A program made the position numbers and the translations under genes. A stretch of DNA of 64,000 nt from a bacterium (GTDB lineage: Bacteria > Patescibacteriota > Minisyncoccia > Phycocordibacterales > UBA2100). This document shows positions 19,253-54,233 of the stretch, piece by piece. Location: assembly GCA_009924895.1 (NCBI GenBank), contig RFQR01000006.1:1800-65799 (forward strand), in the 5' to 3' direction. The notes under the pieces are model-generated. The model made no database searches. It was given only the letters and a program-made list of their open reading frames with translations, and was not told the DNA's origin. Within the stretch, counting starts at the first letter, position 1. Each line of letters starts with the position of its first letter.

Positions 19253-20551
19253 CTACTTTACAGATGCGCCAAACGTTAAAGCTCTTTTGCCCAATATGTT
19301 AGAAACTCCATAATATAAAGATACAATACTCAATAATACAATTTCAACAATACTTATTCTATGCAACGTATCTTGGCTTTTTTTCTGTTCTGGAGTCACG
19401 GCAGTAAGATTTACAATTTTATATCCAAACAGTTGCTGTGAAAGTGTTAAATCCGCACCCCCTTTTTGGGGAGGCACTGTTAGCGCCTTCGCCGCATCCT
19501 TTTGAACAGCCGTTAGCGCATTCGCCGCATCCTTTTGAACAGCCGTTAGCGCATTCGCCGTACCCGTTAGCGCTTTTGCCGCATCCGTTTGAACACTCGT
19601 TAGCACCTTTGCCGCATCCGTTTGAATACTTGACATGCCTGCAACACCCTTTAGAAGGGTATTTGAATCCTTTTGGACACTTGTTAACATATTCACGACA
19701 TCGGATGTGGCAGCGGTTTTATCTACAACACTTTTTATAGCGGAAGGGGCTGTAGCCACTGTAGGAACAATACGTAGATCTATAGAATAGAGGGGAATGA
19801 GTCCAGAAACCCAGTGGGGTTTATAATATATTCCATAAAAGAGGGAGAGTGGGAAAAAGGCGGCCCCATATATAAAATAAAAGAGTTTAATCCCCCAGAA
19901 ATAATCTTCCGCAAATGCGTTGGACAGTATAATTCCACCAAACAGGGCTCCGAAGCTAACACTTATAATCAATAGTCCTCGCATCATAATACGCAGAATA
20001 CGGCCACGAAATCGCGCCCAGTTAAATTCTTTATTCATATCATTTTCATCTTTATCATCCAGTTCTGCAAGCCTCTCACCTAACTCTTCAATACTCGTAT
20101 TTTGAAGAAATGCGCCCTTCACATCATGTAAAAGCTTCTCATACTCTTTTTTTAGATTTGTATTCTCCACATTTTTCAAATGCTTTTCAATCCTATGCTG
20201 CAGAGATTTTAATTCAGATGTGCGCTGTTTTTGTATAGCACCCTCCTGTTCCTTTATAGTATTTGCCAATCGGTTTTCAATATCCCCCAACTTTGCAGCA
20301 GTGGCGGCAGCTCCCAAGTTTGCCGTCTGCAAGTTCGTCGTTTCATTTGCAATTTCCTCTAGTTTATCTATATACGTCCGAGGAAGTTTCGCCGCAACTC
20401 CCTTGTCCAACGCTGCATTTATACGGTCTATTGTGGATTGTGTCATATTTCGCACATTTACCATATTTGTAACTTCATCCATAACATTTTTATAGGCCGC
20501 CGGGTCTGGAACAGGTGATGTAACACCTAAGGAAGATAGCACCGTTGCCAT
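19253..20551 (-). CDS. Coiled-coil / transmembrane repeat protein, a candidate virion structural protein.
   Basis: Long heptad-like N-terminal region and two TM helices. It has 11-aa TSVQKDAAKALT repeats from a 33-bp DNA repeat (19485-19640). The start is trimmed to the first Met after the MCP stop. Confidence 0.5.
   Translation of the reverse strand: MATVLSSLGVTSPVPDPAAYKNVMDEVTNMVNVRNMTQSTIDRINAALDKGVAAKLPRTYIDKLEEIANETTNLQTANLGAAATAAKLGDIENRLANTIKEQEGAIQKQRTSELKSLQHRIEKHLKNVENTNLKKEYEKLLHDVKGAFLQNTSIEELGERLAELDDKDENDMNKEFNWARFRGRILRIMMRGLLIISVSFGALFGGIILSNAFAEDYFWGIKLFYFIYGAAFFPLSLFYGIYYKPHWVSGLIPLYSIDLRIVPTVATAPSAIKSVVDKTAATSDVVNMLTSVQKDSNTLLKGVAGMSSIQTDAAKVLTSVQTDAAKALTGTANALTAVQKDAANALTAVQKDAAKALTVPPQKGGADLTLSQQLFGYKIVNLTAVTPEQKKSQDTLHRISIVEIVLLSIVSLYYGVSNILGKRALTFGASVK
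19485..19640. repeat. 33-bp tandem repeat x about 4.5 inside the coding sequence.
   Basis: gccgttagcgcattcgccgcatccttttgaaca units. Confidence 0.8.
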
Positions 20552-20570
20552 ACTACCGTGATGTTCCAAA

Positions 20571-22124
20571 TTATAAAGCATATTTGAGCCCACCCATGCC
20601 TGATACCACTTCAAACCAGTTAATATTTTCCACGTAAATATCTATATCATATGTATATGTGGTATTTACAGGAAGGGGAAACACATCCAAGTCAACTTGG
20701 AAGTTACGAATACGACTTGCATTTATGGATCCTGAAGCTTGTGTAGGAGATTGAGCTAGTTGAAAAGAATACAGGGGGAGTCCGTCTTGTCCAATCCCCC
20801 TCGCATATCTATATGTCGAAATGCGTGTAAAATAATCGACGGGCTTTAGTTCCTGCATTTCATTCCCATCACATAATATGCGAATATTACGAATAATATC
20901 TTGCTGAGAGTTCGGAATGAAAAGACCTGACGTAGAAGATTGTTGAAGAACATTCAGAATATTTGGTGTAGGCGAAAAGGGTGCATACGGATATGTATAC
21001 CAGTTCGTAAAGTTTGCAAAATCATTGCGTGCAGCTGCATCAGACCTACGTTGAATAAATAGAATACGGCTGAGAGGATTATGTGTTTGCAAATCAATAA
21101 CTTGTCGCGTATATTGTCCTGGAAATGGATATATAGTAACTTGTGGAATCATATAGCTGAGGGGGCGCGTGGCAAAGATTTGCTGCTCCTCTTTTGGAAG
21201 ATAAATGAATGTTCCCTGCAGTATAGGGTTTATAAACCAACTGTTCAATGCCGGGACAGCGGCATTGATATCTGTGAGAAAATATCGTATTTGAGCTAAA
21301 CTAGTATTGGATACTGAATAGTTGGGTGTATTATTGCGTATTTGTTCCGATGTAGCATTCATTATAAAGTTTGGATTCACACGATATCCAGATGCATCGT
21401 TTACCGTGTATAGTTGTGAAATGGGGTTTAGTGTAAGGCGTATTTCACATTCATGAAGCTGCAGACCTATCAGAGGAAGGGCCTGCGAAGGAGCCTCCGT
21501 AAACCAGAAAGAAAGAGGAATATGAATATTACGCCCCATGATGGAAGGGCGATTTACCTGAGTTGCTGTAGTAGGATTTGTAATGACACTCGGATATCCT
21601 AGATGCATAGAACCACCGGCATATGCGCCCGATGCAGGCTCTGTAAGCTCAGGTGTATCCCCCACAAGATATTTCCATTTAAGAAAAGCATCTTGATCTA
21701 CATCAAGCAATGCACGACTTAATAAATAGGAGCCGTCAAACTCTTGAATCTTTTGACCCCCTACAAAAAATGCTGCGTTTTGAATAATGGATGCGCCTAT
21801 ATAGCGAACCCATTGAAACTCCCACTGAGATATACGGCCCGGTGGGGGTTGAGGCGTGATATATTTGCTATAAATATCGGGTATCGTAAATGTAAAAATC
21901 ATATCGGATAATAAATCACCATATCGAGGTATTTTTGCCCGGAGTTGTATCGGCTGATCGAACGAAAGTTCATTCGGCCCCTCTAAGGGAATTGTGATAC
22001 TTTCCATTGCAAAATGAGAATATCGCTTAAATGCCTTATAAAAATACGTCATTTGGGGATTGCCACTTAAAAGCACGTTTTGCGCACCATATGCAACTAA
22101 TGCTAATAATCCTCCACCGGCCAT
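20571..22124 (-). CDS. MCP: Major capsid protein (double jelly-roll, NCLDV MCP).
   Basis: From Met26, MAGGGLLALVAYGAQNVLLSGNPQMTYFYKAFKRYSHFAMESI matches PBCV-1 Vp54 / mimivirus MCP ([42 protein letters not shown]). Confidence 0.9.
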   Translation of the reverse strand: MAGGGLLALVAYGAQNVLLSGNPQMTYFYKAFKRYSHFAMESITIPLEGPNELSFDQPIQLRAKIPRYGDLLSDMIFTFTIPDIYSKYITPQPPPGRISQWEFQWVRYIGASIIQNAAFFVGGQKIQEFDGSYLLSRALLDVDQDAFLKWKYLVGDTPELTEPASGAYAGGSMHLGYPSVITNPTTATQVNRPSIMGRNIHIPLSFWFTEAPSQALPLIGLQLHECEIRLTLNPISQLYTVNDASGYRVNPNFIMNATSEQIRNNTPNYSVSNTSLAQIRYFLTDINAAVPALNSWFINPILQGTFIYLPKEEQQIFATRPLSYMIPQVTIYPFPGQYTRQVIDLQTHNPLSRILFIQRRSDAAARNDFANFTNWYTYPYAPFSPTPNILNVLQQSSTSGLFIPNSQQDIIRNIRILCDGNEMQELKPVDYFTRISTYRYARGIGQDGLPLYSFQLAQSPTQASGSINASRIRNFQVDLDVFPLPVNTTYTYDIDIYVENINWFEVVSGMGGLKYAL

Positions 22125-22208
22125 AGTCTCTTCTGAATCCTTACTGGAATAGAAGAGATTATGCTTAAGCGGTTTGGAACATTTGCGGGGTACTGGCAAA
22201 TGCCATAC

Positions 22209-23072
22209 TTATGTGCTATTTGCCCACCAATCATCACCCATATAGGGGGGCGCATCCAACTGCTTTATTTTTACAGTAGACGAAGGTCCTGCCGCCATAA
22301 TGGCTTGAATCTCATTCATAGAAAGGGCATACCGGGCATATGTAAGATTTGAAACATATCCTTTAAAAGAACCTTCTATTTGGAAATCCTCTCCATTCAA
22401 CGAGGGTATTCCTGATCCACGAAGACTATTTGAGTTAATTGTTGAAAAAAGGACAATATTCTGAAAGTTTTGATATGGCAGCGTATCCTTAAAAGATATA
22501 CGATTCGCCAGATTTCCATTGATAAAAATATCAAGGCCCCCCTTGTAACTATTTAACACTAAATGAAACCACTTTTGCACAGGAATATTCTTAACATCCG
22601 CATATGTAAATGGATTCTTATATGTATTCATGATTACGCGTAAGGTGTTTGTATCAGAATGGAAAAATACGCCCGGACCCATTAAAGGCCAAGGCATCGT
22701 ATATCCCTTATGAAAGACATGTTTGAATGTAGAAGAGCCTGAAAATGTGGCGGGATCCGCGTAAATAAATACTGAATATCCGAACTCAATCCCGGTGCGT
22801 TCATTCATAGAGAATCCAATCGGCTTTGCGTCACTATATTTGGAAGCATCTTGTTGAATTGTGATGGTTGCATCACTCGAGTTCGCAGTATAATCGACAA
22901 CGGTATAAAAACGATTTCGCGCATCAAGTGTCGTTTTGTATAACATTTCAAAAACAATGGTGATAAGTAACACCAATCCTACCATCATAAGACTACTCAC
23001 CACCTGGCCGGAAGAACTTATAGGATTGGGCGGCCCGCTTAAGAGTTTTGGTTGATCAGATATGCTCTGCAT
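22209..23072 (-). CDS. Type-II membrane protein with a C-terminal LamG/ConA-like lectin-fold domain (paralog 1 of 4).
   Basis: N-terminal TM. WFHLVLNSYKGGLDIFINGNL...FKGYVSNLTYARYALSMNEI matches the laminin-G/pentraxin signature. Confidence 0.55.
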   Translation of the reverse strand: MQSISDQPKLLSGPPNPISSSGQVVSSLMMVGLVLLITIVFEMLYKTTLDARNRFYTVVDYTANSSDATITIQQDASKYSDAKPIGFSMNERTGIEFGYSVFIYADPATFSGSSTFKHVFHKGYTMPWPLMGPGVFFHSDTNTLRVIMNTYKNPFTYADVKNIPVQKWFHLVLNSYKGGLDIFINGNLANRISFKDTLPYQNFQNIVLFSTINSNSLRGSGIPSLNGEDFQIEGSFKGYVSNLTYARYALSMNEIQAIMAAGPSSTVKIKQLDAPPYMGDDWWANST

Positions 23073-23165
23073 CTTCTAGTTAGACCTCTGAAGATTAAAA
23101 ATGGGTGTTCTACCTTGAATACTATCAGGGGTGACTGACCATATTCATTTGCAATGAGGGTTGGT

Positions 23166-24215
23166 CTAAGAGGAACCTTTAAAAAGTGAAATAAACCAGG
23201 AAAAAATGTCAGTGCTACTGAGTCCATTTGGTCCAGACAAATAGGCCCTATAAATTTCATCTGGATTCATCGCATAGTTTGCAACTGCCGTATATCCTGT
23301 ATATCCATCAAATCCGCCAAAATCAGTAATATTTGCACGAACCCCCGTAGGGTCCACTCTAAAATAAGAAGATGCCATACATGAGCGGCGAAGCTTGCCA
23401 TCTAAATATACATCTATTGTGCGACCATTGAGAACAACCGTAATCAGTGTCCAGCGCTGAAGGTCCACTTCGGGAAGATCGCATGTAGGAGGACTTGTTA
23501 AAAGGGAATCATTCATCGCTAAAGGCGTGAAGAGTGTTTTCACAACTCCAACAGAGAGATTTCCAATATTTCCAGAGGCATTGGGAGGAACAGCGGAAGC
23601 AGTTGGTGTCGCGCTGGGGCGCGGGGCGCTGGCATTCGTCATTCCAGATCCAGATCCAGATCCAGATCCAGCTCCAGACTGAAATCCGTCGGTAGCTTCA
23701 ATCAACTTATATCCCTTCCCAGATCCAAAGCCCGATTGAAACCCTTCTGCACTCGGATTCTGCGTATGCGTCCTTACCATCAATGTATTATTAAATGCAC
23801 CCAAGCCAACTAAAAGACTTGAAAAATAGTCACCCTGCAGTTCGAAAATGTGCTTTCGTGTATTTAGATTCTTATTATAACTGTTCACATATATCCATAT
23901 ATTTACAGAATACTCCCCACCCTCATAGGGAGTAGGGATTTTTGGAAGATTATCAGGCGCCGAATCAGCAGCACGTTTTTGTGTAAGAATAGGTATAAGT
24001 TTATCACTCGAAGATGTATATAAATAGCGATACATATAATATATAACAATGAACCCTATTACAAGAAAAATCATAGTTATGATTGAAAATCCACTTGAGC
24101 TTTTTACAGGCTGTGCTGTAGCCATAGATGCGGCCATAGATGCTCCTAGATTTGATGTGGAAGGCCCCGATGCAGATTTATTAAATCCTACCATAGAGGA
24201 TACTGACGTTCCCAT
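23166..24215 (-). CDS. LamG/ConA-like membrane protein (paralog 2) with a Gly/Ser low-complexity linker.
   Basis: TM helix, GSGSGSGSG tract, WTLITVVLNGRTIDVYLDGKL...GYTAVANYAMNPDEI. Confidence 0.55.
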   Translation of the reverse strand: MGTSVSSMVGFNKSASGPSTSNLGASMAASMATAQPVKSSSGFSIITMIFLVIGFIVIYYMYRYLYTSSSDKLIPILTQKRAADSAPDNLPKIPTPYEGGEYSVNIWIYVNSYNKNLNTRKHIFELQGDYFSSLLVGLGAFNNTLMVRTHTQNPSAEGFQSGFGSGKGYKLIEATDGFQSGAGSGSGSGSGMTNASAPRPSATPTASAVPPNASGNIGNLSVGVVKTLFTPLAMNDSLLTSPPTCDLPEVDLQRWTLITVVLNGRTIDVYLDGKLRRSCMASSYFRVDPTGVRANITDFGGFDGYTGYTAVANYAMNPDEIYRAYLSGPNGLSSTDIFSWFISLFKGSS

Positions 24216-24325
24216 ATTTCTCTACCGTGAAGTATCAAATTTAATATTCATGGCACTGTGGTTCACTATTTTATGCAGGGCAACTACATAAAATAGTAAA
24301 CGGCATAGATACGTCCCAAAAAGAC

Positions 24326-25378
24326 TCAGGCATAGGGTGTGGACCATTGATATAAGGGGGATGCGGCACGAATAGGAGGGGGGTCGAAGCATCCTCCTGG
24401 GCATACACTTATGCCACTCAATGTAGAACCGATGGATGTAGATTCGGCGGAAGGATTTAGTCCAACCCTATTAATCATTTCGGAGGGGGGGGCCGTCGTA
24501 GACAGCCCGAGTGTTGAACCGGAATTCAAATAAGGCCTTCCTCGTGTATCGGAGAACGTCTTATATATGATACGAATCTCGCCGCTACTTATACGATTCG
24601 TATATAGATTCGCCATAGCAATTTGCCCTATAAGTTCATCAGACCCGGAGGTAACACCTTTGTAGTTTGTATTTGATTTATTCGATATTGGCATATACAT
24701 TGTTTTTTGTGACAAGACAAGAATATCATTGTAATATATATCAAACCGCCGGCCCTCGCGACCCACGGTTACCATTGTCCACTTTTGAATAGGAATCGGG
24801 GGGACTTGCAATGTTTCAATATATTTTTGAGAGTTTGTAGAGCCAGCTGATACGGGGGGGCCTTCCGTTTGCACAATCAGTTGCGACATAGCCTTCCCTT
24901 GACGACTTGCATCCGGGGCATTTAATACTTCAAATCCTACAACGCCTGCAATATTAAATATGGATTTATATCCTGAATGATTGCAAATAGAACAGTTATT
25001 CGTTGCAGGGTCGCATGGGCAGGGAACAAACGTTCCATCTTCACAGGATGCCTGATTTGGATTTGTCCCGCATTTTGCATATGCACCTGTTCGATTCATA
25101 GGGCTCAAATATACAAAGGCAGAAAAACTTCCATCTGTATCCGTGTAAAACGTGGACGCTGTATCAGCATCAATCATTGATGTTTCAGAACCGAGCGAAA
25201 AAGGGCCTATGGCGCTTACTTGAATTTTTGGAACATAGCTAGGACTGAAATACATTACTAGAACTATAACAAATAGAATTGCGAGGAGAATATAGCCCAT
25301 ACGTATCGATGTAAACCATGCAAATATGGATATATTATGTGATGTCATGCTAGGAACAATTGCTTTACCCAAATCCAT
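24326..25378 (-). CDS. LamG/ConA-like membrane protein (paralog 3) with a Cys-rich segment.
   Basis: TM helix, WTMVTVGREGRRFDIYYNDIL...IGQIAMANLYTNRISSGEI. Confidence 0.5.
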   Translation of the reverse strand: MDLGKAIVPSMTSHNISIFAWFTSIRMGYILLAILFVIVLVMYFSPSYVPKIQVSAIGPFSLGSETSMIDADTASTFYTDTDGSFSAFVYLSPMNRTGAYAKCGTNPNQASCEDGTFVPCPCDPATNNCSICNHSGYKSIFNIAGVVGFEVLNAPDASRQGKAMSQLIVQTEGPPVSAGSTNSQKYIETLQVPPIPIQKWTMVTVGREGRRFDIYYNDILVLSQKTMYMPISNKSNTNYKGVTSGSDELIGQIAMANLYTNRISSGEIRIIYKTFSDTRGRPYLNSGSTLGLSTTAPPSEMINRVGLNPSAESTSIGSTLSGISVCPGGCFDPPPIRAASPLYQWSTPYA

Positions 25379-25382
25379 CTAC

Positions 25383-26513
25383 TTATAATGCACTCTTTGA
25401 AAAAAATGAATCACTTGCTATAGGATCCCCATTCGAAGCTATTTCGCGTACAGTTAATACTCTAGGCCAGAAAGTAAGGTTTGCTAAAAATGCGCTTGGC
25501 ATCACATTGGATGTCGGTGGATAAAACATGGATGCATCTGATACGGGCATTGGAGGATTATGTAGTGTCATTGTTTTTTCGAGTGCACCATTGATATAGA
25601 CTTCCACAAACTTTTGCGTAAAAATCACTGTGAGCCGAATAACTTCTTTCATAGGAATATTTTCAATAGGTGCCATTGTTTGTAGTTGTGCCTTGGCTGC
25701 CGTACCATCTTCGCTAGTAATAACAGTAACATTCAAATCATTTTTCATGGAATCAAGCCATAGAATAATATTTGTATCAGGAAAATATGTAAAAATATTA
25801 TTGTTAGAAACAGGGGTAGGAACAGTGCCAGAACCTGTGCCAGGACCAGTGCCAGAAGCAGGACTAGTGCCAGTGCCAGAACCAGTGCCAGTGCCAGAAC
25901 CAGAACCTGTGCCAGAACCAGGACTAGGTGTAGGACAGGCATTCGTCGTGCTGGGTTGAGATGTATCGACAGAAGTGGGTAATCCAAAGTCCTGTGATAC
26001 AGGACTCGTTGTGATTCCTACACCAGGACTTGCGGGTGTGACGACACTCGTTTTCCCCCTATATAAGAGTATACGAGGCGCTGGAGATACATAAAAGGAA
26101 CCACTCAGATACAAGTCCATTCCAATTGTATACGAATATGCAGGGATATCCTTAAAATTCGCACTTTTATCAGATGGTGCGGGTGAAGCCGTAAAATCAG
26201 TTTGAATGTCGGAGACAGTTGGTATAGGAATAAAACCACTATCACTTGGATTGAAAGAAAATACCGGTGTTATTGTAAAATGAACAAACACCAGTGCTAA
26301 AAAGAGTATGAATACAATCAATGCCATATAAAAAACGCTTTGCAATATGTTTCCATACGTAGTTGTAGTCTGCGGCGCCTGCATGACTGGCCTCTTATTC
26401 AAGACACTTTGGAGAAGAACAGAGGGTTGCGTGGATTTATTCCATGTTGGTAAATGAGATGCATACATTTCCTTGCTACCACAAGCAACGAAATTCATGC
26501 ATCTAAAATTCAT
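25383..26513 (-). CDS. LamG/ConA-like membrane protein (paralog 4) with a GSGTG repeat linker.
   Basis: TM helix, (GSGTG)n, VIRLTVIFTQKFVEVYINGAL...FLANLTFWPRVLTVREI. The exact start is uncertain. Confidence 0.5.
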   Translation of the reverse strand: MNFRCMNFVACGSKEMYASHLPTWNKSTQPSVLLQSVLNKRPVMQAPQTTTTYGNILQSVFYMALIVFILFLALVFVHFTITPVFSFNPSDSGFIPIPTVSDIQTDFTASPAPSDKSANFKDIPAYSYTIGMDLYLSGSFYVSPAPRILLYRGKTSVVTPASPGVGITTSPVSQDFGLPTSVDTSQPSTTNACPTPSPGSGTGSGSGTGTGSGTGTSPASGTGPGTGSGTVPTPVSNNNIFTYFPDTNIILWLDSMKNDLNVTVITSEDGTAAKAQLQTMAPIENIPMKEVIRLTVIFTQKFVEVYINGALEKTMTLHNPPMPVSDASMFYPPTSNVMPSAFLANLTFWPRVLTVREIASNGDPIASDSFFSKSAL

Positions 26514-26527
26514 ATTCTATCTTCACA

Positions 26528-27676
26528 TCACGCCTTCCGCGTCTTTCTTTTTTTCATATCCCCATGTTCAGGATGAAATTGAATACGATCATAATATGCC
26601 TGTGTATCTTTCATTTTGCACCCACGTAGTTTTTCGCGCAAATAACATACAAACGAAATACGAGTAAACAGTTGGTCTCCACCCAATGTGCCCGTATCTG
26701 ATGAGTTGTTGTGTATTTTTGGAAGCGCCCTATTATATTTTTTATCAGCATCTGTTTCTATCATTTCGGTATTACAGTGCCATTCGTGCACATCCATTGC
26801 AAGAAAATCTCCCGTTCGCACATTAAATCCGATTTTATATCTCGGTAGAATTGTTGCTCCACCTGTATAACGACCCCGCTCAATTACAGACAGATTTCCA
26901 TACCCCTCTTTAAAATCCCCTGCATCTACATGTAGGGCTGTGCGAAAGTTTCTATTCACCGTAATCGATGAAAACGCCGTTTTAGTAATGCGATAGCGCG
27001 ATTTCTCAGAGGCAGCGGAAAGTTGTTTTGCATGTTTGTCCGGAATCAGGCGTTTAAATACGGAATCAATCGCCTCAATATAAGGTAATCCATGTTTATA
27101 TTGCTCGAAATACTTTTGTGTATAAGAAGTCAGGCGACATGGAAGGCCCATAAAAGGTGTTTCTTCGAAATATCCTAAGACGGAACTGAACACATTATTA
27201 TTCACGCGCATTTTGGAAAGTTTCCCGTTTTGTTTATACCTCGCAGACCAACCATTCACTTCCACAGGCTTCCGCTTTTTCCAATAGTTGGAATCATGTT
27301 GAATAGGCCCTGCAGCTGCTCCGCGATTTCGCGAGGATGCCGCCGTTTGATAATATGCTTCCCACCCGATTTTTATCAAATCATTCGGCAATACGTGTTT
27401 GCGAAAACGTGCGAGTAACTTCTTTTCGCCACTGGATGGATCGATACCGTATACATCTACATCCTCGTCCAGAATCTCATTCGCATCCTTTTCTGTAAAA
27501 TAGGTGCCCTCTCGCCCCTTTATTTCATCCTCCGTAAGCTGTGGCTTCAATGTTAGTTCGCGAACTTTCAGCTTTAACTCCTTTGCGTGACCTTCAGGTA
27601 TCTGCAACCCTTCATAGATTTCTGGCTTATAATGCTTTGCTTTTCGACTTACTCCTCTTTTTGAGTGTGCCACCAT
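26528..27676 (-). CDS. Hypothetical protein, possibly a 2OG-Fe(II) dioxygenase-like fold (HxD ... H motif).
   Basis: 382-aa ORF. TALHVDAGDF then ~45 aa later VHEWH, with a later TRISF (RxS-like). The functional call is weak. Confidence 0.35.
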   Translation of the reverse strand: MVAHSKRGVSRKAKHYKPEIYEGLQIPEGHAKELKLKVRELTLKPQLTEDEIKGREGTYFTEKDANEILDEDVDVYGIDPSSGEKKLLARFRKHVLPNDLIKIGWEAYYQTAASSRNRGAAAGPIQHDSNYWKKRKPVEVNGWSARYKQNGKLSKMRVNNNVFSSVLGYFEETPFMGLPCRLTSYTQKYFEQYKHGLPYIEAIDSVFKRLIPDKHAKQLSAASEKSRYRITKTAFSSITVNRNFRTALHVDAGDFKEGYGNLSVIERGRYTGGATILPRYKIGFNVRTGDFLAMDVHEWHCNTEMIETDADKKYNRALPKIHNNSSDTGTLGGDQLFTRISFVCYLREKLRGCKMKDTQAYYDRIQFHPEHGDMKKRKTRKA

Positions 27677-27752: not shown

Positions 27753-28577
27753 CTATTTTCTATCCAAATGATATATTAGAAACCCCTTTTGAGATTCTAT
27801 AAACTCTTTATTTAAATTATAAAAACTTCTTCTATTCCAACTAAATCCGTAGTTAATATCCAGTAACTTATTCAGTATATCTATATCATTTGTAAGTAAT
27901 GTTTCAATAGACCATTGTAACTTTGTTATAGGAGTCGTATTTATAATTTCAAACCCATGGTATAGTATTAAATAAAATTGATAAATGATATAGTCAAAAT
28001 GATCCCAGATAATCGCATCATACGTAATCATATTTAAAAAAGGGTGTATATCGGCTCGTCTATACACTGGTAAATCGCTCCACCAAAAATAAAGAGTAAA
28101 GTTTTTTGTTACATCTTCAAGGTATTTCATTTTTTCCGGAAATAATGAAGCACAATTCTTTGTTATTCGTTTCGTTAGACAGTTCCCGTTTGTATCACCC
28201 GCATAAATTGTTTTAGTATCAAATATCTGTTTTATTTTATTGTTCATATTTTCACTTGTAAAGTTAGTGGGTATAATATCTATTTCACTGTCGCAACAAA
28301 CTATATACTCATATTTCGAATCGGCTAGATGTTTGAGTCCAAAAAATTTCTTATATGTAATTATTGATTTTGTTTCAAAAGGTTCACATACAATAGGTTT
28401 TATTTCGTTTTTCATAGTAAATCTATCATACTCCGTATTATTTGAAAATACTAGACATATATCAATATGAATATCATGCTCTTTTAGTTTATTGATTAGA
28501 TTATACATATAATGATAGTTAGGCGGGTGAATAGGAATTAGAATGGCAATATTGTCAATATGCATGTACATATACAT
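27753..28577 (-). CDS. Hypothetical protein encoded in an AT-rich compositional island, possibly glycosyltransferase-like.
   Basis: 274-aa ORF with strongly AT-biased codons (N/I/K/Y-rich), unlike its neighbours. Confidence 0.45.
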   Translation of the reverse strand: MYMYMHIDNIAILIPIHPPNYHYMYNLINKLKEHDIHIDICLVFSNNTEYDRFTMKNEIKPIVCEPFETKSIITYKKFFGLKHLADSKYEYIVCCDSEIDIIPTNFTSENMNNKIKQIFDTKTIYAGDTNGNCLTKRITKNCASLFPEKMKYLEDVTKNFTLYFWWSDLPVYRRADIHPFLNMITYDAIIWDHFDYIIYQFYLILYHGFEIINTTPITKLQWSIETLLTNDIDILNKLLDINYGFSWNRRSFYNLNKEFIESQKGFLIYHLDRK

Positions 28578-28605: not shown

Positions 28606-29073
28606 TTAGAGTTTCTCACCTTGCGTCGTCCACCATAAAAGACCCCCTGCTATCGCCACGACACCCGCCCCCAGCACCGCCCCCTTCATCATAGACCGTG
28701 AATCAATCTCTTCAAAATCAACATTTGTAATAAAAGGGCTCTTTTCCCTTGCCCCAATACGTGTATAAAAGTTGATAGATTCTATCTCGGTGATTGTGGG
28801 TTTACCCAATAATGTATTTACCTCATTATGAAGCCGAACTGTCCAGCGAAACAAATCATCGCGGCGATCCAGGTGAGGCGATATAGGCAACTTTTGTAAA
28901 TGTTGTTTATAATGCTCACGGCATATGGGACAGGGTATCAACTCTGTCATACTTTCATAAAACTCTTTTGCCGCCCGCTTTTGCGCATATGTCGGGTTGC
29001 TGGGATATGAAAGTGCAACTACATGAATCGTATGCCAAAATATAGGTCCCCAGACATTCGGAGGGAATCGCAT
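28606..29073 (-). CDS. Erv1/ALR-family FAD-linked sulfhydryl oxidase with a C-terminal TM anchor.
   Basis: WGPIFWHTIHVVALSYP...CPICREHY (CxxC) plus a hydrophobic C-terminus. Typical of the NCLDV E10R/pB119L class. Confidence 0.8.
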   Translation of the reverse strand: MRFPPNVWGPIFWHTIHVVALSYPSNPTYAQKRAAKEFYESMTELIPCPICREHYKQHLQKLPISPHLDRRDDLFRWTVRLHNEVNTLLGKPTITEIESINFYTRIGAREKSPFITNVDFEEIDSRSMMKGAVLGAGVVAIAGGLLWWTTQGEKL

Positions 29074-41782: not shown

Positions 41783-42619
41783 ATGCCACATCCTTGGCAA
41801 GAGTTGTCTATTGTGAATAAACATCCGCGCGATGATTTTATCCAGTTTGATGAACCTACGCATGTATATACAGTCAATGGGAGTTCCAAAGGAGTGATTT
41901 CGTGCACGAAGTTTCTTCATGAGTTCTTTCCTCACTTTGATGCAAAGGCGGTGATTGCAAAAATGATGGCTTCGCCAAAATGGCCTCAAAATAAATATTA
42001 TGGAAAGACGGCAGAACAAATTCAAAAAGAGTGGAATGACAATGGTGCTGCTGCAAGTGGAGCCGGCACAGCCATGCATTTGGCCATTGAACAGTTTCTT
42101 CACGGACATCCTGAGTTGATTGAACCGGGTGTTCTTCAAACTCCTGAGTGGCAGTATTTCACGAATTTCTGGAAAGATGCAAAAGAGGATTTAGTCCCCT
42201 ATAGAAGTGAGTGGGAAGTATGGAGCGAGGAATATAAACTTGCGGGTTCGATTGACATGGTGTTTTATCGTAAATCAGACGACTCCTATGTGATATATGA
42301 CTGGAAACGCTCCAAAGAAATAAAGAAAGAGAATAGTTTTGGAAATGGGTTTGGCCCCGTGAGTCATTTACCGGATTGCAACTATTGGCATTATACGTTG
42401 CAACTGAATGTGTATCGCTGGTTTTTAGAGACCTACTATGGTCTGAAAATCAGTGATATGTATATTATGATCTTTCACCCGGACAATGACGACTATAAGC
42501 GCTATAAACTAAATCGACTAGAGGAAGAAGTTCTGGAGATGCTGGCTGCCCGCTTAAGGGCTGTGCGGGAAGGGCGAGGGGTTGTAACATATGACAGGCG
42601 CGGGTCTAAGGCTTTCTAA
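41783..42619 (+). CDS. PD-(D/E)xK nuclease of the RecB/Cas4/lambda-exo (YqaJ-like) family.
   Basis: GTAMHLAIEQF, GSIDMVF...VIYDWKRSK (D...DxK), QLNVYRWFLE (QxxxY). Confidence 0.55.
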   Translation: MPHPWQELSIVNKHPRDDFIQFDEPTHVYTVNGSSKGVISCTKFLHEFFPHFDAKAVIAKMMASPKWPQNKYYGKTAEQIQKEWNDNGAAASGAGTAMHLAIEQFLHGHPELIEPGVLQTPEWQYFTNFWKDAKEDLVPYRSEWEVWSEEYKLAGSIDMVFYRKSDDSYVIYDWKRSKEIKKENSFGNGFGPVSHLPDCNYWHYTLQLNVYRWFLETYYGLKISDMYIMIFHPDNDDYKRYKLNRLEEEVLEMLAARLRAVREGRGVVTYDRRGSKAF

Positions 42620-45600
42620 ACCGCAGAAGAGAATCGGCTTTTTCATATATTTGTTTCAATCCTCGTGGCATATCGTCTCGAGTCAAAAACTGAGGTAGTT
42701 CGGGTGATAATAAAAGAAGGGCCGGTCCTTCTTCTGTGATTATAAATACGGGAACGCCAGGCGCGCTTGGTCGAATCGGTTTAAATGCCCTGTATTTTGG
42801 CGGATCTGAACGTATATCGATTTGTATGACGGGCATCGATATTTCATGTAGTATTCTGGCCAGGGTTTTATCATCCAGTTCTTTTGTATCAGGCCCTATT
42901 CCAAGCCCAGCAGATGTCATACCTATGGGCGCCAATAAAGTATCAAATGTCCCTCTTTTTAACCGAAGAGCTCCTGTTTTGGGATCCGGCTCCCCTCCCT
43001 GTAGAAAGTTCTCAAGCGTTGGAGGAAGTTTTGTAGACTCGTCTTGGGGGGCGAGAGGCGTGGCCGTCGCTATACGGGACATTTCTTCATAGAACTTCGG
43101 CACCTCCTCTTTTGTCGTTGCCCAATCCAGTCGTAACAGTTCATACCATGCAGCAGACTTCTCTGGATAAATGCGCTGATTCCCTTCAATCGTAACGGGC
43201 TTATCCAGGGTCGCTAATCGGCTCACATCTTGTTCCAACAGTTGCCGCCGTTTTTCCGCATAGCGCAATAGTTCTTCTATCAAACGAGCTAAAAGAATCT
43301 CTGGCGCTGATACGGCCTTTTCCTGCCCCCCCACGTGTGTTTCTTTTGGCACATGTAGAAGACATTTTCCCTTCTCTTCACGCCAAGCACATCGACCCCC
43401 GCACGCCTCTTTATTCTTGAAGTGACAGTCTACACGTAATAGGGATGTTTCATGTGACCGCTTTTTATCCTCCTCTGTAAAATCGGTTGTAATCCAGCTC
43501 TGAACTGTTTTCCATAAATGTATGGATAATGCCTTTCTCTTTTCATGCATGGGTAGTTTATGAGAGAAAATAATGCTTTTCAGCAGTTCTCTAAAGTCGC
43601 CACCATCCTCTTTGGCCGCTAACCAGTTTGAAAATCGTATACGCAGATGCTCAAATACTTCCTGAAATTCTATTTCATCCATTCGAGCCTTTTCACCAGG
43701 AACTTCTATAGATTCCTCTTTAAAGGATATGTCGTGATTTATTTTCCATTCCATCATTCCTACCGTAACAGACTCTAGTTTATTCTCTGTCATCAGCTTC
43801 TCCACAACATCCGGCTTCGTGGGTCCTACAGGAACGTACAGCCCATTTCGCAGTTGAATCGCCTCAATCTCTCCACTTTGCTGCCCTTTGACAATTCTTC
43901 GCGGGACATAGCCCTTATAAAGAGCAAAGTGTGGTTCTATGAACATTTTGTAAAACTGGAGGACTTGTTGTAGGGATGCGGGTTTAAACGCCGGATCATC
44001 CCAGTCTAGGAATAGATTCCCTTTTATAAAAAGCCTACCGTCGTCTACCACAGGTAATGCAATATATCCCTCCTGTGTTTTAAACTTATATACAAGTGCT
44101 CCTAAATGATTATATGCATCTCGTATGATTCCGACCATGGAAACACTGAGCTCTTTTATGAAAATGCTGTTTGAAATACTTGCAGGAATCATTGCCATTG
44201 GATGTATTTTACTTTGGGATGTATATGCCGCACGACCATTTGAGCTGCATTGATTCATATATTCTTGCAGGCGTTGTGTAACAATATCGGGCCAGACAGA
44301 TGCGTCAGTCATTTGAAATATAAGCGTAAAAATATCCATACCTCGTTGTTCGACGGAACGATTATCTACATAAAAGATTGGTTCCCAAATTCCTGACCAA
44401 TGATGCATGAGAAACGCCACATTATTTTGCGCCATAAGTTCTGCATTATACCCATAGGGTGGGCAGCGAACAGAGACTTTTCCAGATTTCAATATATCTA
44501 GCACAATAAATGTTGTTCCTACACCAAACGCTTTTCGTGTAATCAGATTTGATTGTGAAAGTGCTAATGCAAAATGTCTGAATTCCTTTTTCGTTTTATC
44601 GGATTTCAGCCATTCCTCAAAAGAATAATAACTCATATACGCACGCACAATGGCCTCCCTATTGGATTCATCCACATCTACTTGAAGTTCATCAGATGCC
44701 CATTTCATGATAGCTGAATCTTTGGGTCGTCGCAGGGTCGAGTTTGCAGGATCATAGAACTCCAACACCATATTTCCGTAGTTAAGACCTAAAAATATGC
44801 GCGGGGTTATTTTACTAAGTAGAAATGATTTCATTTGGTCTGCATTATTCAACATATAATAGGGCGCAACTGCGGCTAAAAAACTGTCATTCTGGAATCT
44901 GGCACGATTTTCTACTCCAATCCGTAAAAATCCTGTCCCACCCTCCTTTATTTTTTGAGGATTAAATGTGCGACTCACGAGTTGCGTAGAATCCTGGTTA
45001 AAATATGTATCAAATATGGGTGGAAGTAATCCTACTTGGGCTTCTCCTCTCGCCTTTCCCACAAGTAAACTAACATCGAGGGGCATTTTTTCCGCACCTA
45101 CAATGTATTTTTTTGTCACGCCTGCGAGTGTTACATAATAATCCAAAATAGGTATACCTGCATCATCTCTGGATGTCGCGATTTGTTCCTCCTCCTCGTC
45201 ACTATCCTCGAGGGTAACACTTTTTGTTTTTGTTTTGGGTTTCTCTCCCCATTCCCTATATCTATCAAACGCGGGATCCGTAAACTGAATAGGAGATTCT
45301 TCCATAAAACAACATGGGAGATAGAATCCTTCTGGATGCGTTTTGGCTTTTAAAAATTTTATATAGAGATGTCGTCGACCTGTATTCGGTTTCATCTCTC
45401 TTTCTAAGATCGTTTCACCCGCTTTAGGGTAACGGCGTGATTGAATCACTTTTCCTTTACAAAAAGGACATTCTCCAGGTCGTTTGGGAGCCCCCTTTGG
45501 TCGACGCATAACAGATGATTCCAGATCCGATTCTCGAATCATAATTTCATCTTTTGTGCAGAAATAGCGGCAACAGATATAATAGTTTTGATTTTGTGCT

Positions 45601-52482: not shown

Positions 52483-53010
52483 ATGACTAGGGATATGGCA
52501 TTTTGGGAAGATATTGAATGGAAAGCATGGTTACGAGAGTATGTCACTTGGAAGAATGAGCAGATTCCACGACATGCAGCTATTCGTCATTTTTGTAATG
52601 AACTTTGTATATTTCTTCATTTCCATGGCTATTTCTTACGTGTCAATCGCAATACACTGAAATCACATATAGCGACTGGATTATATAACAGTCGAACATC
52701 GTGTAATATAACACACTGGATATTCGGAGAACAAGATGCGGACTATCAGCATAAAGTATATTTTGCACACGTGATTGATTCTACGGAATGGAACAAATTC
52801 TGGAACACATCCGCAAAATGGTGCGATCTAGATGCGAATGTTCTATATGGTCTTGAACGTCAATATTGTATTGAACATTATGTTTGGACACAGCTAGATT
52901 TAGGTATATCAAAACATACACGAACGGTGAATGAATTATTAGGCTTAGATGATGATATAATATCAGAAAATGAAAATCATGACACGATATTCCAAGATAT
53001 GAATGATTAA
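52483..53010 (+). CDS. Hypothetical His/Trp-rich protein.
   Basis: ORF 52438..53010 trimmed to the Met at 52483. Confidence 0.4.
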   Translation: MTRDMAFWEDIEWKAWLREYVTWKNEQIPRHAAIRHFCNELCIFLHFHGYFLRVNRNTLKSHIATGLYNSRTSCNITHWIFGEQDADYQHKVYFAHVIDSTEWNKFWNTSAKWCDLDANVLYGLERQYCIEHYVWTQLDLGISKHTRTVNELLGLDDDIISENENHDTIFQDMND

Positions 53011-54233
53011 CTGCTAGACCACTTTGAATTATTAAAGGGTCGCATAAATAAAGAATCCACTTCTTTTTCAAATTCGTGCACTTTAGTATCGAATTTCAAG
53101 GCGTCGGGTGTTTTAGGTATTTTGCCATTTTTCATTAACATTTCTTCATCATGGGCGGATTGAGATGGTTTCTTGCCATAGCAATTCACTCCATATAACA
53201 TATCGGGATTATCAAAATATCCTCCATTGAGTCCAACCGTCCCACATGCGCCGTGATCATCCGCCGGGCCGTTTTGAATTTTATCATATGTTTCTTGTTG
53301 AGTTGGATATACGGCCATTTGCCCCTTCACCCAACCATAGTTGCACCAATCCGCGCCTTTACTCCAAGCATTTTTGACTTGTTCATATGTGGCTAGTTCT
53401 GCTCCAAGAGATTTACATAAAGGCTCCGCATCATAATAGGTGAACTTGTTGTGAGAGACATTATATACTTCATTACTACCTGTCGGAAGTACTTTCTCTA
53501 CAATATTATTCATCTGTATTTCCTGCTTGGGAGTTATGGTTTGAGGAGGTATAGGTGCTTGTGTTATAGGGGGTGTCGTATCAACAACAGGTAAAGGTGG
53601 TTTAGATATACCAAGGGACATTTTAATAGATCTCGAAAGATATTCATATCCGTGTGATATTTGTTTATTAAAAATGGCAAAGACCACTAAAAATACTGTA
53701 AAAAATGCAATAAAAATCCAGAGGGGGGATATCCAAGAACTGGAGATTTTTCCACTATTGTTTGCAGCCATATTGAACATATTCGATCCACTCGCAGATC
53801 CACTCGCAGATCCACTTGCAGATCCACTTGCAGATCCACTCGCATTTTTAGAGTTTGAGTTTCCAAAAATATTAAACATGCTGTTATTTGCAGCATTATT
53901 TTTCGTATTCGCCCCACTTTCTTTTTTTGTGTTTACCATGTTTGTATTTGTTCGAGGCGGGGATGCATTTCCAAACGGTAATAAACTATTAAAAGATGAA
54001 GTCTTATTTGCAGCAGGTATTACAGAACTTATTGCAGAACTCGCTGCATTTACTGCAGTGGTTGCCGCGGAACTCGCTGCATTTACTGCAGTGGTTGCCG
54101 CAGAACTGGCTGCACTTGCAAGTGCATTTACTGCCCCTGTAGTTACTCCAAATGCGCTTGTTAAAGCTCCCGCAACGGGATTTTGTCCTATAGGATTCGA
54201 AGCAGTCGCGTTCATCTCTACCGTGTTGTGCAT
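53007..54233 (-). CDS. Membrane protein with a C-terminal Link (hyaluronan-binding, Xlink) module.
   Basis: A/S-rich N-terminus, (SGSA)n, TM (aa 168-188), Pro-rich stalk, then KFTYYDAEPLCKSLGAELATYEQVKNAWSKGADWCNYGWVKGQMAVYPTQ...GACG...CYG, which fits the Link module (TSG-6/CD44 type, 4 Cys). Confidence 0.5.
   Translation of the reverse strand: MHNTVEMNATASNPIGQNPVAGALTSAFGVTTGAVNALASAASSAATTAVNAASSAATTAVNAASSAISSVIPAANKTSSFNSLLPFGNASPPRTNTNMVNTKKESGANTKNNAANNSMFNIFGNSNSKNASGSASGSASGSASGSASGSNMFNMAANNSGKISSSWISPLWIFIAFFTVFLVVFAIFNKQISHGYEYLSRSIKMSLGISKPPLPVVDTTPPITQAPIPPQTITPKQEIQMNNIVEKVLPTGSNEVYNVSHNKFTYYDAEPLCKSLGAELATYEQVKNAWSKGADWCNYGWVKGQMAVYPTQQETYDKIQNGPADDHGACGTVGLNGGYFDNPDMLYGVNCYGKKPSQSAHDEEMLMKNGKIPKTPDALKFDTKVHEFEKEVDSLFMRPFNNSKWSSS

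What the first reader, a model, noticed from the sequence alone, without database searches (positions are those of the whole stretch)
22209..26513. Tandem array of four membrane-anchored LamG/ConA-like paralogs immediately downstream of the major capsid protein gene.
Four consecutive same-strand genes (287-376 aa) share one architecture: an N-terminal signal-anchor TM, a variable low-complexity linker (GSGSG / GSGTG / Cys-rich), and a C-terminal laminin-G-like jelly-roll (W..h.hh.nG...dhYhnG.l ... F.G.h..h.hy.ral...EI). They follow the MCP and a coiled-coil TM protein co-directionally, which suggests a structural or attachment module. Possible roles are capsid-surface or inner-membrane lectin-like proteins diversifying by duplication. 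The linkers differ completely between copies while the lectin domain is retained.
Basis: partly seen in the sequence, partly recalled or inferred. Interest (0 to 1): 0.55.

Follow-up and report, generated by a model that had tools for sequence, protein, structure and literature searches.

The report
Membrane-anchored LamG gene array beside capsid gene
Four neighbouring genes of an uncultured freshwater giant virus encode old, related membrane-anchored lectin-fold proteins that are probably virion membrane components; this is a real, conserved module of a protein family already annotated in cultured relatives, whose function is untested.

Summary
Four consecutive minus-strand genes (287, 349, 350 and 376 aa) each encode one N-terminal transmembrane helix followed directly by a concanavalin-A-like/LamG beta-sandwich. 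Evidence: weak Pfam PF13385 hits, AlphaFold2 models of two copies, Foldseek, and significant full-length profile-profile alignments for all six pairs.

Three details are wrong.
- The array is transcriptionally upstream of the capsid gene, not downstream.
- The low-complexity or Cys-rich stretches are insertions in three different loops inside the sandwich, not linkers between helix and domain.
- The copies are not recent diversifying duplicates. They are four ancient orthologous groups, kept in the same order next to the capsid gene wherever the flanks are covered in 94 related IMG/VR loci.

The virus belongs to Imitervirales family IM_01 (Mesomimiviridae). More distant relatives keep 3-gene arrays linked to Erv1, Nudix and D5, but rarely to the capsid gene. 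A cultured IM_01-type relative, PkV RF02, has three consecutive 'Concanavalin A-like' proteins in purified virions. Orthology to these could not be tested.

My best reading is virion inner-membrane proteins that couple the membrane to the capsid. An entry or recognition role is a close rival. It is a new member of a known, uncharacterised kind, of moderate interest.

The parts
25383..26513 (-). LG4: first gene of the array, 376 aa, N-terminal TM helix plus LamG-like sandwich; the most divergent paralogue
   Evidence: ORF. Pfam PF13385 E 0.013; 12/28 orthologues hit PF13385. hhalign against LG1: prob 97.5%, E 4.8e-12, 233 columns.
26277..26339 (-). LG4 transmembrane segment (residues about 59-79)
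   Evidence: Kyte-Doolittle peak 2.93. Present in all 50 orthologues, minimum 2.07.
25806..26042 (-). LG4 GS/GT/P-rich insertion (residues about 158-236) in a loop of the sandwich; lineage-specific
   Evidence: Alignment occupancy 0.04-0.08 among 50 orthologues. Maps after LG1 residue 126 in hhalign. Hexanucleotide tandem repeat at 25806-25921.
24326..25378 (-). LG3: 350 aa, TM helix plus LamG-like sandwich with a conserved Cys-rich loop and a C-terminal CxxxC
   Evidence: ORF. Pfam E 4.2e-4; 15/29 orthologues hit PF13385, best 1.8e-8. hhalign against LG2: prob 99.1%, E 5.9e-19.
25238..25300 (-). LG3 transmembrane segment (residues about 27-47)
   Evidence: Kyte-Doolittle peak 2.56.
24974..25081 (-). 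LG3 Cys-rich loop insertion (residues about 100-135; Cys 103, 112, 120, 122, 129, 132)
   Evidence: Six Cys conserved in 75-84% of 57 orthologues; Cys326 and Cys330 in 93-96%. Maps between LG1 residues 116 and 117.
23166..24215 (-). LG2: 349 aa, TM helix plus LamG-like sandwich split by a disordered GS-rich insertion, with a C-terminal amphipathic helix
   Evidence: ORF. Pfam E 8.1e-6. AF2 pLDDT 71.3: helix 41-70, strands 73-149 and 256-312, low confidence about 150-243. Foldseek PDB E 3.5e-7 to neurotoxin Hc chains. 479 homologues.
24027..24089 (-). LG2 transmembrane segment (residues about 43-63)
   Evidence: Kyte-Doolittle peak 2.47; AF2 helix 41-70.
23487..23753 (-). LG2 variable GS-rich insertion (residues about 155-243) inside the sandwich
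   Evidence: AF2 pLDDT below 50 over most of 156-214. Occupancy 0.27-0.73 among 70 orthologues. Hexanucleotide repeat at 23643-23678.
22209..23072 (-). LG1: last gene of the array, 287 aa, TM helix plus compact LamG-like sandwich with no insertion and an invariant C-terminal PPY..DWW tail; the most conserved paralogue
   Evidence: ORF. Pfam E 3.7e-6, score equal to the gathering cut-off. AF2 pLDDT 84.9, pTM 0.76: helix 20-52, strands 55-246. Foldseek PDB and BFVD matches. 450 homologues. Invariant columns.
22941..23003 (-). LG1 transmembrane segment (residues about 24-44)
   Evidence: Kyte-Doolittle peak 2.40; AF2 helix 20-52 with pLDDT 83-95.
20571..22199 (-). Major capsid protein gene immediately 3' of LG1 (probable ATG at 22124, 84 nt after the LG1 stop)
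   Evidence: Pfam Capsid_N 1.2e-23 and Capsid_NCLDV 8.4e-17. Best PDB relative is PBCV-1 Vp54, 8e-28. Orthologue alignments start at residues 9-26 of the listed ORF.
28606..29073 (-). Erv1/ALR sulfhydryl oxidase gene, a conserved upstream neighbour of the array in close and distant relatives
   Evidence: Named from sequence reading and from called-gene Pfam Evr1_Alr in related loci. Synteny: Erv1 lies upstream of the array in 42/48 distant loci.

Best explanation
What they are. The four genes encode ancient, non-redundant paralogues of one family of single-pass membrane proteins. Each has a short N-terminal tail, one transmembrane helix, and about 10 residues later a concanavalin-A-like/LamG beta-sandwich followed by a short conserved aromatic tail.

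What they most likely do. They are probably expressed with the major capsid protein as part of the virion-building module of a freshwater Mesomimiviridae (Imitervirales IM_01) virus, and are built into the virion's internal lipid membrane. The sandwiches would then lie flat on the membrane face. I propose that they act as protein- or glycan-binding adaptors that couple the membrane to the underside of the capsid lattice during assembly, possibly as a hetero-complex of the four paralogues. This would make them functional analogues of the membrane-integrated minor capsid proteins of other giant viruses (SGIV VP88 and VP38, ASFV p17).

Shown here: gene structure, TM segment, fold, paralogy, deep conservation of order and number, virus family.

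Inferred: virion location (from PkV RF02 proteomics and gene linkage), orientation towards the capsid, and the coupling function.
For: - Fold and architecture: Pfam PF13385 hits for all four. AF2 models of LG1 (pLDDT 84.9) and LG2 (71.3) show a TM helix directly followed by a beta-sandwich. Foldseek matches chains of clostridial neurotoxin receptor-binding (Hc) fragments (by my reading, their N-terminal lectin-like sub-domain), PAPP-A, NEL, collagen IX NC4 and pentraxins at E 5e-8 to 1e-6.
- Paralogy over the full length.
- Each paralogue is kept as one orthologue, in fixed order next to the MCP, wherever the flanks are covered in 94 loci, down to about 40% MCP identity. This argues for distinct, non-redundant roles.
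- Slow evolution: LG1 identity is about 0.85 of MCP identity, similar to Nudix, D5 and SNF2. LG1 has 60 invariant columns in 67 sequences, including the C-terminal PPY..DWW tail. This fits fixed protein-protein interfaces better than a host-receptor arms race.
- There is no stalk between helix and sandwich, which fits a membrane-proximal layer.
- Family placement: GVMAGs that carry the block are IM_01, the family that holds CeV, PgV and OLPV.
- Proteomics in a relative: PkV RF02, whose ORFs have PgV as best hit, has three consecutive 'Concanavalin A-like lectin/glucanases' proteins, ORF267/268/269, in purified virions at 1.3-1.5%, 0.9-1.0% and 0.04-0.09% abundance, against MCP at 15-36% (PMC11953307). 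That is a level typical of minor structural proteins.
- Membrane-integrated minor capsid proteins exist in other giant viruses (PMC10090177; melbournevirus preprint 10.1101/2025.06.16.659922).
Against: - No direct evidence places these proteins in a virion.
- Sequence searches of the PDB found nothing. No solved giant-virus minor capsid protein appeared in the top 50 Foldseek hits. No LamG-type capsid-membrane tether is known.
- In more distant relatives the array is linked to Erv1, Nudix and D5 and only rarely to the MCP (5 of 41 loci). MCP adjacency is therefore specific to this clade and is weak functional evidence.
- The flanking-charge bias differs between paralogues. The C-side is more positive in LG1 and LG3, the N-side in LG4, and LG2 is ambiguous. 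The side of the membrane faced by the sandwiches is unresolved and may differ.
- The fold is classically a ligand- or glycan-binding module, which fits an entry role equally well.
Confidence: 0.4

Rival explanations
1. Entry or recognition lectins. The proteins sit in the virion's internal membrane. When the capsid opens, the LamG domains bind host glycans or proteins on the host membrane, so that the viral membrane can dock and fuse.
For: - LamG/ConA-like domains are typical ligand-binding modules. The best structural matches are chains of receptor-binding regions of clostridial neurotoxins and pentraxins.
- Laminin_G_3 modules occur in the attachment fibres of polinton-like viruses (PMC12220804).
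- The authors of the PkV RF02 study class the ConA-like virion proteins under 'virus entry/recognition'.
- Lineage-variable loop insertions in LG2 and LG4 would suit exposed, adaptable surfaces.
Against: - The PkV RF02 classification rests on domain annotation only.
- LG1 to LG3 are strongly conserved across viruses that presumably infect different hosts. Receptor-binding proteins usually diverge fast.
- Four fixed single-copy paralogues, with no lineage-specific expansion except LG2 x3 in L091, L092 and L094, is not the pattern of host-range genes.
- There is no stalk to reach outward.
- No sugar- or calcium-binding site could be tested.
Confidence: 0.3
2. Non-virion role in the infected cell. 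The proteins are ER or virus-factory membrane proteins that recruit, shape or mark host membranes, or bind glycoproteins during replication, and are not packaged in meaningful amounts.
For: - The N-terminal signal-anchor suggests ER targeting.
- The array is more widely linked to Erv1, Nudix and D5 than to the MCP.
- In SGIV and ASFV, ER-targeted viral membrane proteins recruit membrane precursors.
Against: - ConA-like proteins of PkV RF02, a cultured virus of the PgV/CeV group, are found in purified virions with 47-72% sequence coverage for ORF267 and ORF268.
- In SGIV the ER-recruiting protein is itself a virion component, so this rival merges with the best explanation.
Confidence: 0.15
3. 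Enzymes of the ConA-like glucanase type (GH16-like) that degrade the host cell wall or glycans.
For: Pfam names the superfamily 'Concanavalin A-like lectin/glucanases'.
Against: - The Pfam hits are to Laminin_G_3, not to a glycoside hydrolase family.
- None of 246 orthologues carries a GH16-type E-x-D-x-(x)-E motif.
- The listed top 50 structural matches are almost all non-catalytic binding domains.
Confidence: 0.03

Closest known systems
'Concanavalin A-like lectin/glucanases' proteins of cultured Mesomimiviridae: PkV RF02 ORF267-269, HeV RF02 ORF324-326, and their Phaeocystis globosa virus homologues (PMC11953307)
   Same: - Related viruses: their best hits are Phaeocystis globosa virus, which is IM_01.
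- Same domain annotation.
- Tandem co-directional array of similar-sized genes: 474-292-329 aa and 528-271-347 aa. The 3-gene arrays in 47 of 57 distant loci have a similar long-short-medium pattern, with median lengths 449, 240 and 292 aa.
- The authors describe most proteins of their 'virus entry' category, which includes these, as membrane-associated.
- Found in purified virions.
   Different: - Three annotated genes, not four, and not adjacent to the MCP (PkV RF02 MCP is ORF313).
- Direct sequence orthology to LG1-4 was not tested here.
- Their function is also untested; 'virus entry' is an annotation-based label.
Pfam PF13385 Laminin_G_3 (ConA-like lectin/glucanase clan); structurally, the matched parts of clostridial neurotoxin receptor-binding fragments, TSPN/LamG domains (collagen IX NC4, NEL, PAPP-A) and pentraxins
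   Same: Two-sheet beta-sandwich jelly roll. Sequence motifs such as W..v.v..dg..l.lYvnG and a terminal ...EI helix. Foldseek probability 1.0, E 5e-8 to 1e-6.
   Different: - Only 8-15% sequence identity.
- Fused directly to an N-terminal transmembrane helix.
- Large disordered or Cys-rich insertions in three different loops.
- Ligand unknown.
Membrane-integrated minor capsid proteins of other giant viruses: SGIV anchor protein VP88 and zip protein VP38, ASFV p17, and melbournevirus capsid-membrane tethers
   Same: Proposed function only: a transmembrane segment in the internal membrane plus an ectodomain under the capsomers, ER origin, and a role in docking capsomers on the membrane (PMC10090177; 10.1101/2025.06.16.659922).
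   Different: No sequence similarity and no fold similarity was detected. VP88 has a helical membrane-proximal domain and a crown domain rather than a LamG sandwich. This is an analogy, not homology.
Laminin G domain proteins packaged in Aureococcus anophagefferens virus particles (AaV_024, 276, 314, 386; PMC7507832)
   Same: LamG-domain paralogues of an Imitervirales virus, found in the virion proteome.
   Different: They are dispersed in the terminal genome regions, include a 231 kDa protein, and are described as unique to AaV and acquired from bacteria. No relation to LG1-4 was tested.
Laminin_G_3 repeats in fibre proteins of polinton-like viruses and phage receptor-binding proteins
   Same: The same Pfam domain is used by viruses for host attachment (PMC12220804; many phage hits in BFVD).
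   Different: Those are long soluble modular fibres with up to seven LamG repeats and a C-terminal Peptidase_S74 chaperone, and they have no membrane anchor.

Membership tests
Pfam PF13385 Laminin_G_3 / ConA-like lectin-glucanase superfamily | Sequence match to the family model at or above the curated gathering score (27.6 bits) | tested here: inconclusive
   LG1 scores 27.6, equal to the cut-off. LG2 26.5, LG3 20.9 and LG4 16.1 fall below it. Most LG1 and LG2 homologues carry a precomputed PF13385 hit. 15/29 LG3 and 12/28 LG4 orthologues hit it at E<=0.01.
Pfam PF13385 Laminin_G_3 / ConA-like lectin-glucanase superfamily | Two-sheet antiparallel beta-sandwich (jelly-roll) fold | tested here: met
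   AF2 models of LG1 (pLDDT 84.9) and LG2 (71.3) are beta-sandwiches. Foldseek probability is 1.0 to LamG/TSPN/pentraxin structures and neurotoxin receptor-binding fragments. For LG3 and LG4 this is inferred from full-length HMM-HMM alignments to LG1 and LG2; they were not modelled.
Pfam PF13385 Laminin_G_3 / ConA-like lectin-glucanase superfamily | Carbohydrate-, calcium- or protein-ligand-binding site on the sandwich | not testable with these tools
   No coordinates or ligand-site comparison were available. Needs glycan arrays or solved structures.
Mesomimiviridae virion 'Concanavalin A-like' proteins (PkV RF02 ORF267-269 type) | Tandem co-directional array of three or more ConA-like genes in an IM_01 virus | tested here: met
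   Four-gene array in the window. IM_01 placement through GVMAGs that carry the same block. Isolate arrays in the supplement of PMC11953307.
Mesomimiviridae virion 'Concanavalin A-like' proteins (PkV RF02 ORF267-269 type) | Direct sequence orthology to the isolate proteins | not tested
The three homologue searches and the representative search returned only unnamed metagenomic proteins.
Mesomimiviridae virion 'Concanavalin A-like' proteins (PkV RF02 ORF267-269 type) | Presence in purified virions | not testable with these tools
   The virus is uncultured. Only the PkV RF02 proteome is available.
Membrane-anchored minor capsid proteins of giant viruses (SGIV VP88/VP38, ASFV p17) | Sequence or fold homology to a solved member | tested here: not met
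   Profile searches of PDB sequences found nothing relevant. No giant-virus capsid chain appeared among the top 50 Foldseek hits for LG1 or LG2.
Membrane-anchored minor capsid proteins of giant viruses (SGIV VP88/VP38, ASFV p17) | Transmembrane segment in the internal membrane with the ectodomain under the capsomers | not testable with these tools
   A TM helix is predicted. Location in the virion needs cryo-EM or cross-linking MS.
GH16-type ConA-like glucanases | Catalytic E-x-D-x-(x)-E motif and a match to a glycoside hydrolase model | tested here: not met
   0 of 246 orthologues carry the motif. No GH family appears in the Pfam scans.
Viral fibre or tail LamG modules (polinton-like viruses, phages) | Soluble modular fibre with repeated LamG units, often with a Peptidase_S74 chaperone and no membrane anchor | tested here: not met
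   Each protein has a single LamG domain with an N-terminal TM helix and no other Pfam domain.

The most novel reading that the evidence does not exclude
LG1-4 are the so-far unidentified membrane-anchoring minor capsid proteins of Mesomimiviridae. They would form a heteromeric layer of LamG sandwiches, one of each ancient paralogue, that docks the MCP lattice onto the internal membrane. Their conserved aromatic C-terminal tails would plug into capsomer bases or the membrane interface. This would be the first lectin-fold capsid-membrane tether, and a conserved feature of a large part of the Imitervirales.
Probability: 0.3. Interest if true: 0.6.

Novelty: new member of a known kind. Interest (0 to 1): 0.35.

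Why it matters
Mesomimiviridae are among the most abundant giant viruses of algae and other protists in lakes and oceans, yet no near-atomic virion structure of them came up in the searches made here, so which proteins join their capsid to the internal membrane appears to be unknown.

This family is very large: 1276 clusters at 50% identity. It sits in a deeply conserved gene block and has likely counterparts at about 1% abundance in PkV RF02 virions. That makes it an obvious candidate when assigning densities in future cryo-EM maps, and a candidate for entry studies.

For annotation, the practical points are:
- The four genes are distinct orthologous groups.
- The low-complexity stretches are loop insertions.
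- The source contig is filed in NCBI as 'bacterium' but is a giant virus.

Tried and rejected
1. Naming through databases. Three homologue searches, one exhaustive representative search and three cluster look-ups returned hundreds of relatives. The only informative name was one UniRef 'LamG-like jellyroll fold domain-containing protein, viral metagenome'. Orthology to cultured isolates therefore stayed untested.
2. PDB sequence searches with LG1 and LG2 profiles gave no meaningful hits.
3. Shared late-promoter motif. k-mer counts upstream of LG1-4 and the MCP across orthologous loci gave no clean common motif. Short TAGA-like words near -10 of LG1 and LG2 were not convincing, partly because start codons are uncertain.
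4. Erv1-substrate idea (disulfide-bonded virion membrane proteins next to the thiol oxidase gene). Family members are Cys-poor overall, 0.74 against 1.47 Cys per 100 aa. Only LG3 (8 conserved Cys) and LG2 (2) are candidates. I keep this as a minor possibility, not a mechanism.
5. Topology from the positive-inside rule. The result is inconsistent between paralogues, so no orientation is claimed.
6. Glucanase reading: rejected.
7. Structured RNA in the region: none at Rfam gathering thresholds.
8. AaV LamG virion proteins: considered as relatives, but they are described as AaV-specific bacterial acquisitions at the genome termini. They are not used as evidence.

Full report
**What is in the window**

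The region is part of the conserved core of a giant virus (Nucleocytoviricota). On the minus strand, in order of transcription, lie:
- Erv1 (28606-29073)
- a window-specific 274-aa ORF (27753-28577)
- a TET/JBP dioxygenase (26528-27676)
- LG4 (25383-26513, 376 aa)
- LG3 (24326-25378, 350 aa)
- LG2 (23166-24215, 349 aa)
- LG1 (22209-23072, 287 aa)
- the major capsid protein (20571-22199; probable ATG at 22124)
- a repeat-containing protein with TM segments (19253-20614)
- a GT2 glycosyltransferase
- an SNF2/RING helicase

. Elsewhere the window encodes topoisomerase II, a capping enzyme, a D5-like primase-helicase and an intein-containing RPB1. However, the array is 5' of the MCP gene in the direction of transcription, not downstream of it.

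**Is the shared architecture real?**

Yes.
- Each protein has one strong hydrophobic segment near the N-terminus (Kyte-Doolittle 2.4-2.9), and it is conserved in the orthologues.
- All four hit Pfam Laminin_G_3, weakly: E 3.7e-6, 8.1e-6, 4.2e-4 and 0.013. Only LG1 reaches the gathering score.
- Among orthologues, 15/29 LG3 and 12/28 LG4 sequences hit the same family, and no other family recurs.
- Pairwise BLASTP between the window copies is marginal or negative.
- HMM-HMM alignment of orthologue sets (50-70 sequences each) is significant for all six pairs: probability 96.5-99.1%, E 6e-10 to 6e-19, 221-304 aligned columns running from the TM helix to the end of the sandwich.
- No other ORF in the window matches these HMMs at E<=1.

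AlphaFold2 supports the same picture.
- LG1 (67-sequence alignment): pLDDT 84.9, pTM 0.76, helix 20-52, then beta-strands 55-246 and a short helix.
- LG2: pLDDT 71.3, helix 41-70, strands 73-149 and 256-312, and a low-confidence stretch in between.
- Foldseek matches both models to chains of clostridial neurotoxin receptor-binding (Hc) fragments (by my reading, their N-terminal lectin-like sub-domain), and the LG1 model also to PAPP-A, NEL, collagen IX NC4 and pentraxins (E 5e-8 to 1e-6, probability 1.0).

**Correction of the 'linker' idea**

The sandwich begins about 10 residues after the membrane helix, so there is no stalk. The variable stretches are loop insertions inside the domain, at three different sites.
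- LG2 has a disordered GS-rich insertion after a conserved 'NP' (residues about 155-243).
- LG3 has a Cys-rich insertion at the position between LG1 residues 116 and 117.
- LG4 has a GS/GT/P-rich insertion after the position of LG1 residue 126.
- LG1 has none.

The insertions behave differently in evolution.
- The six LG3 cysteines are conserved in 75-84% of orthologues, and a C-terminal CxxxC in 93-96%.
- The LG2 insertion varies in length.
- The LG4 insertion exists in 8% or fewer of orthologues.

At DNA level the LG2 and LG4 inserts are hexanucleotide tandem repeats. Each paralogue also ends in a conserved aromatic tail. LG1 has an invariant PPY..DWW. LG2 has an amphipathic helix with an invariant Trp. 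LG3 ends in PLYxW.

**Related genomes**

Two scans of IMG/VR gave 94 loci with an LG1 orthologue. Every locus keeps as much of the order LG4-LG3-LG2-LG1-MCP as its flanks cover, with no exception, inside the block D5 / Nudix / Erv1 / (TET-JBP) / array / MCP / TM protein / GT2 / SNF2-RING. This holds down to about 40% MCP identity. In the two most distant loci the MCP is inverted but still adjacent, and three loci have LG2 in triplicate.

The four genes are therefore ancient orthologous groups, not recent diversifying copies. Conservation falls in the order LG1 > LG2, LG3 > LG4. LG1 tracks the MCP at about 0.85 of its identity, like Nudix, D5 and SNF2.

GVMAGs that carry the block are classified as Imitervirales IM_01, genera g314 and g317, from fresh water. 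IM_01 is the family of CeV, PgV and OLPV. The window itself is an NCBI metagenomic contig labelled 'bacterium'.

An exhaustive profile search finds 1276 clusters (at 50% identity) of LG1 relatives, 626 of them below E 1e-10. In 74 distinct, more distant loci (D5 identity about 27-38%):
- the genes again form co-directional tandem arrays, three genes in 47 of 57 loci;
- Erv1 lies upstream in 42 of 48 loci;
- an MCP gene follows within the available flank in only 5 of 41 loci, about 2 kb away (single contexts).

Direct MCP adjacency is thus specific to this clade. The array itself, and its link to Erv1, Nudix and D5, is much older.

**What is known**

The nearest predicted viral structures are Imitervirales proteins (ChoanoV1, PoV-01B, TetV-1 and Megaviridae environmental samples). 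Some are already annotated as ConA-like or LamG proteins.

The study of the haptophyte viruses HeV RF02 and PkV RF02 lists tandem 'Concanavalin A-like lectin/glucanases' genes with PgV homologues: PkV ORF269-268-267 (474, 292 and 329 aa) and HeV ORF324-326 (528, 271 and 347 aa). It also finds the three PkV proteins in purified virions, at 1.3-1.5%, 0.9-1.0% and 0.04-0.09% abundance, against 15-36% for the MCP. The authors file them under 'virus entry/recognition' from the domain annotation alone. The PkV MCP is ORF313, not adjacent (PMC11953307).

I could not obtain those sequences, so orthology to LG1-4 is inferred from related viruses, domain, array form and sizes.

**Mechanism**

The strict retention of one copy of each paralogue, slow evolution, many invariant residues, conserved tails, absence of a stalk and structural-level abundance in a relative all point one way. 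They fit best with fixed components of the virion's internal membrane that contact other structural proteins.

I therefore favour a capsid-membrane coupling role (confidence 0.4). This would be analogous, not homologous, to SGIV VP88 and VP38, ASFV p17 and the melbournevirus tethers.

An entry or recognition role for membrane-bound lectins exposed on capsid opening is a close rival (0.3). The fold is a classic ligand binder, and some loops vary between lineages. A non-packaged role at ER or factory membranes (0.15) and an enzymatic role (0.03; no GH16 motif in 246 orthologues) are less likely.

Orientation in the membrane is unresolved, because flank-charge bias differs between paralogues. An Erv1-substrate idea is weak except for LG3.

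**Verdict**

This is a real, well-conserved four-gene module, correctly spotted but misdescribed in three respects. It is a new member of a protein family already annotated, and seen in virions, in cultured relatives, whose function remains untested. The interest is moderate. The module is a good candidate for the unidentified membrane-associated structural or entry proteins of an ecologically important group of giant viruses.

Noticed in passing
window 27753-28577 (-): A 274-aa AT-rich ORF with no Pfam hit lies between TET/JBP and Erv1 only in this window. In the closest relative (L001) the two genes are 15 nt apart, and no counterpart was found in any of the 94 related loci.
   Followed up: partly
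window 19253-20614 (-): The gene after the MCP encodes a protein with three TM-like segments and 11-aa tandem repeats (33-nt repeat at 19479-19630). Its position is conserved, but its sequence is only 24-64% identical and its length varies.
   Followed up: partly
window 58524-63944 (-): The RNA polymerase RPB1 gene is interrupted by an intein with a LAGLIDADG homing-endonuclease domain.
   Followed up: no
window 23166-24215 (-); protein P0135: The window matches an NCBI metagenomic record labelled 'bacterium' (locus tag EBR66_03275, contig 71,237 bp), so a giant-virus contig is misfiled. The deposited LG2 model starts at Met48, inside the transmembrane helix.
   Followed up: partly
L091, L092, L094 (about 4.7-8.0 kb in each locus): In one distant sub-clade the LG2-type gene is present in three tandem copies, giving a six-gene array. 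This is the only copy-number change seen in the 94 loci.
   Followed up: no
L100-L179: In more distant Imitervirales contigs the block D5 / Nudix / Erv1 followed by a three-gene TM-LamG array (long, about 240 aa, about 290 aa) is widely conserved. Erv1 lies upstream in 42/48 loci, while an MCP gene follows in only 5/41.
   Followed up: yes
window 53007-54233 (-): A protein with an extracellular link (Xlink, hyaluronan-binding type) domain. PkV RF02 also packages an Xlink-domain protein (ORF195) in its virions.
   Followed up: no
window 42606-48254 (-): A 1882-aa ORF with no Pfam match at all.
   Followed up: no
window 26528-27676 (-); loci L012, L013, L033, L055, L058-L060, L069: The TET/JBP dioxygenase gene between Erv1 and the array is present in most relatives but missing from several sub-clades, so it is a variable insert in an otherwise fixed block.
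   Followed up: no
window 23643-23678 and 25806-25921: The GS and GS/GT runs of LG2 and LG4 are hexanucleotide tandem repeats at DNA level (6 and about 15 copies). This suggests slippage-driven length change in surface loops.
   Followed up: partly
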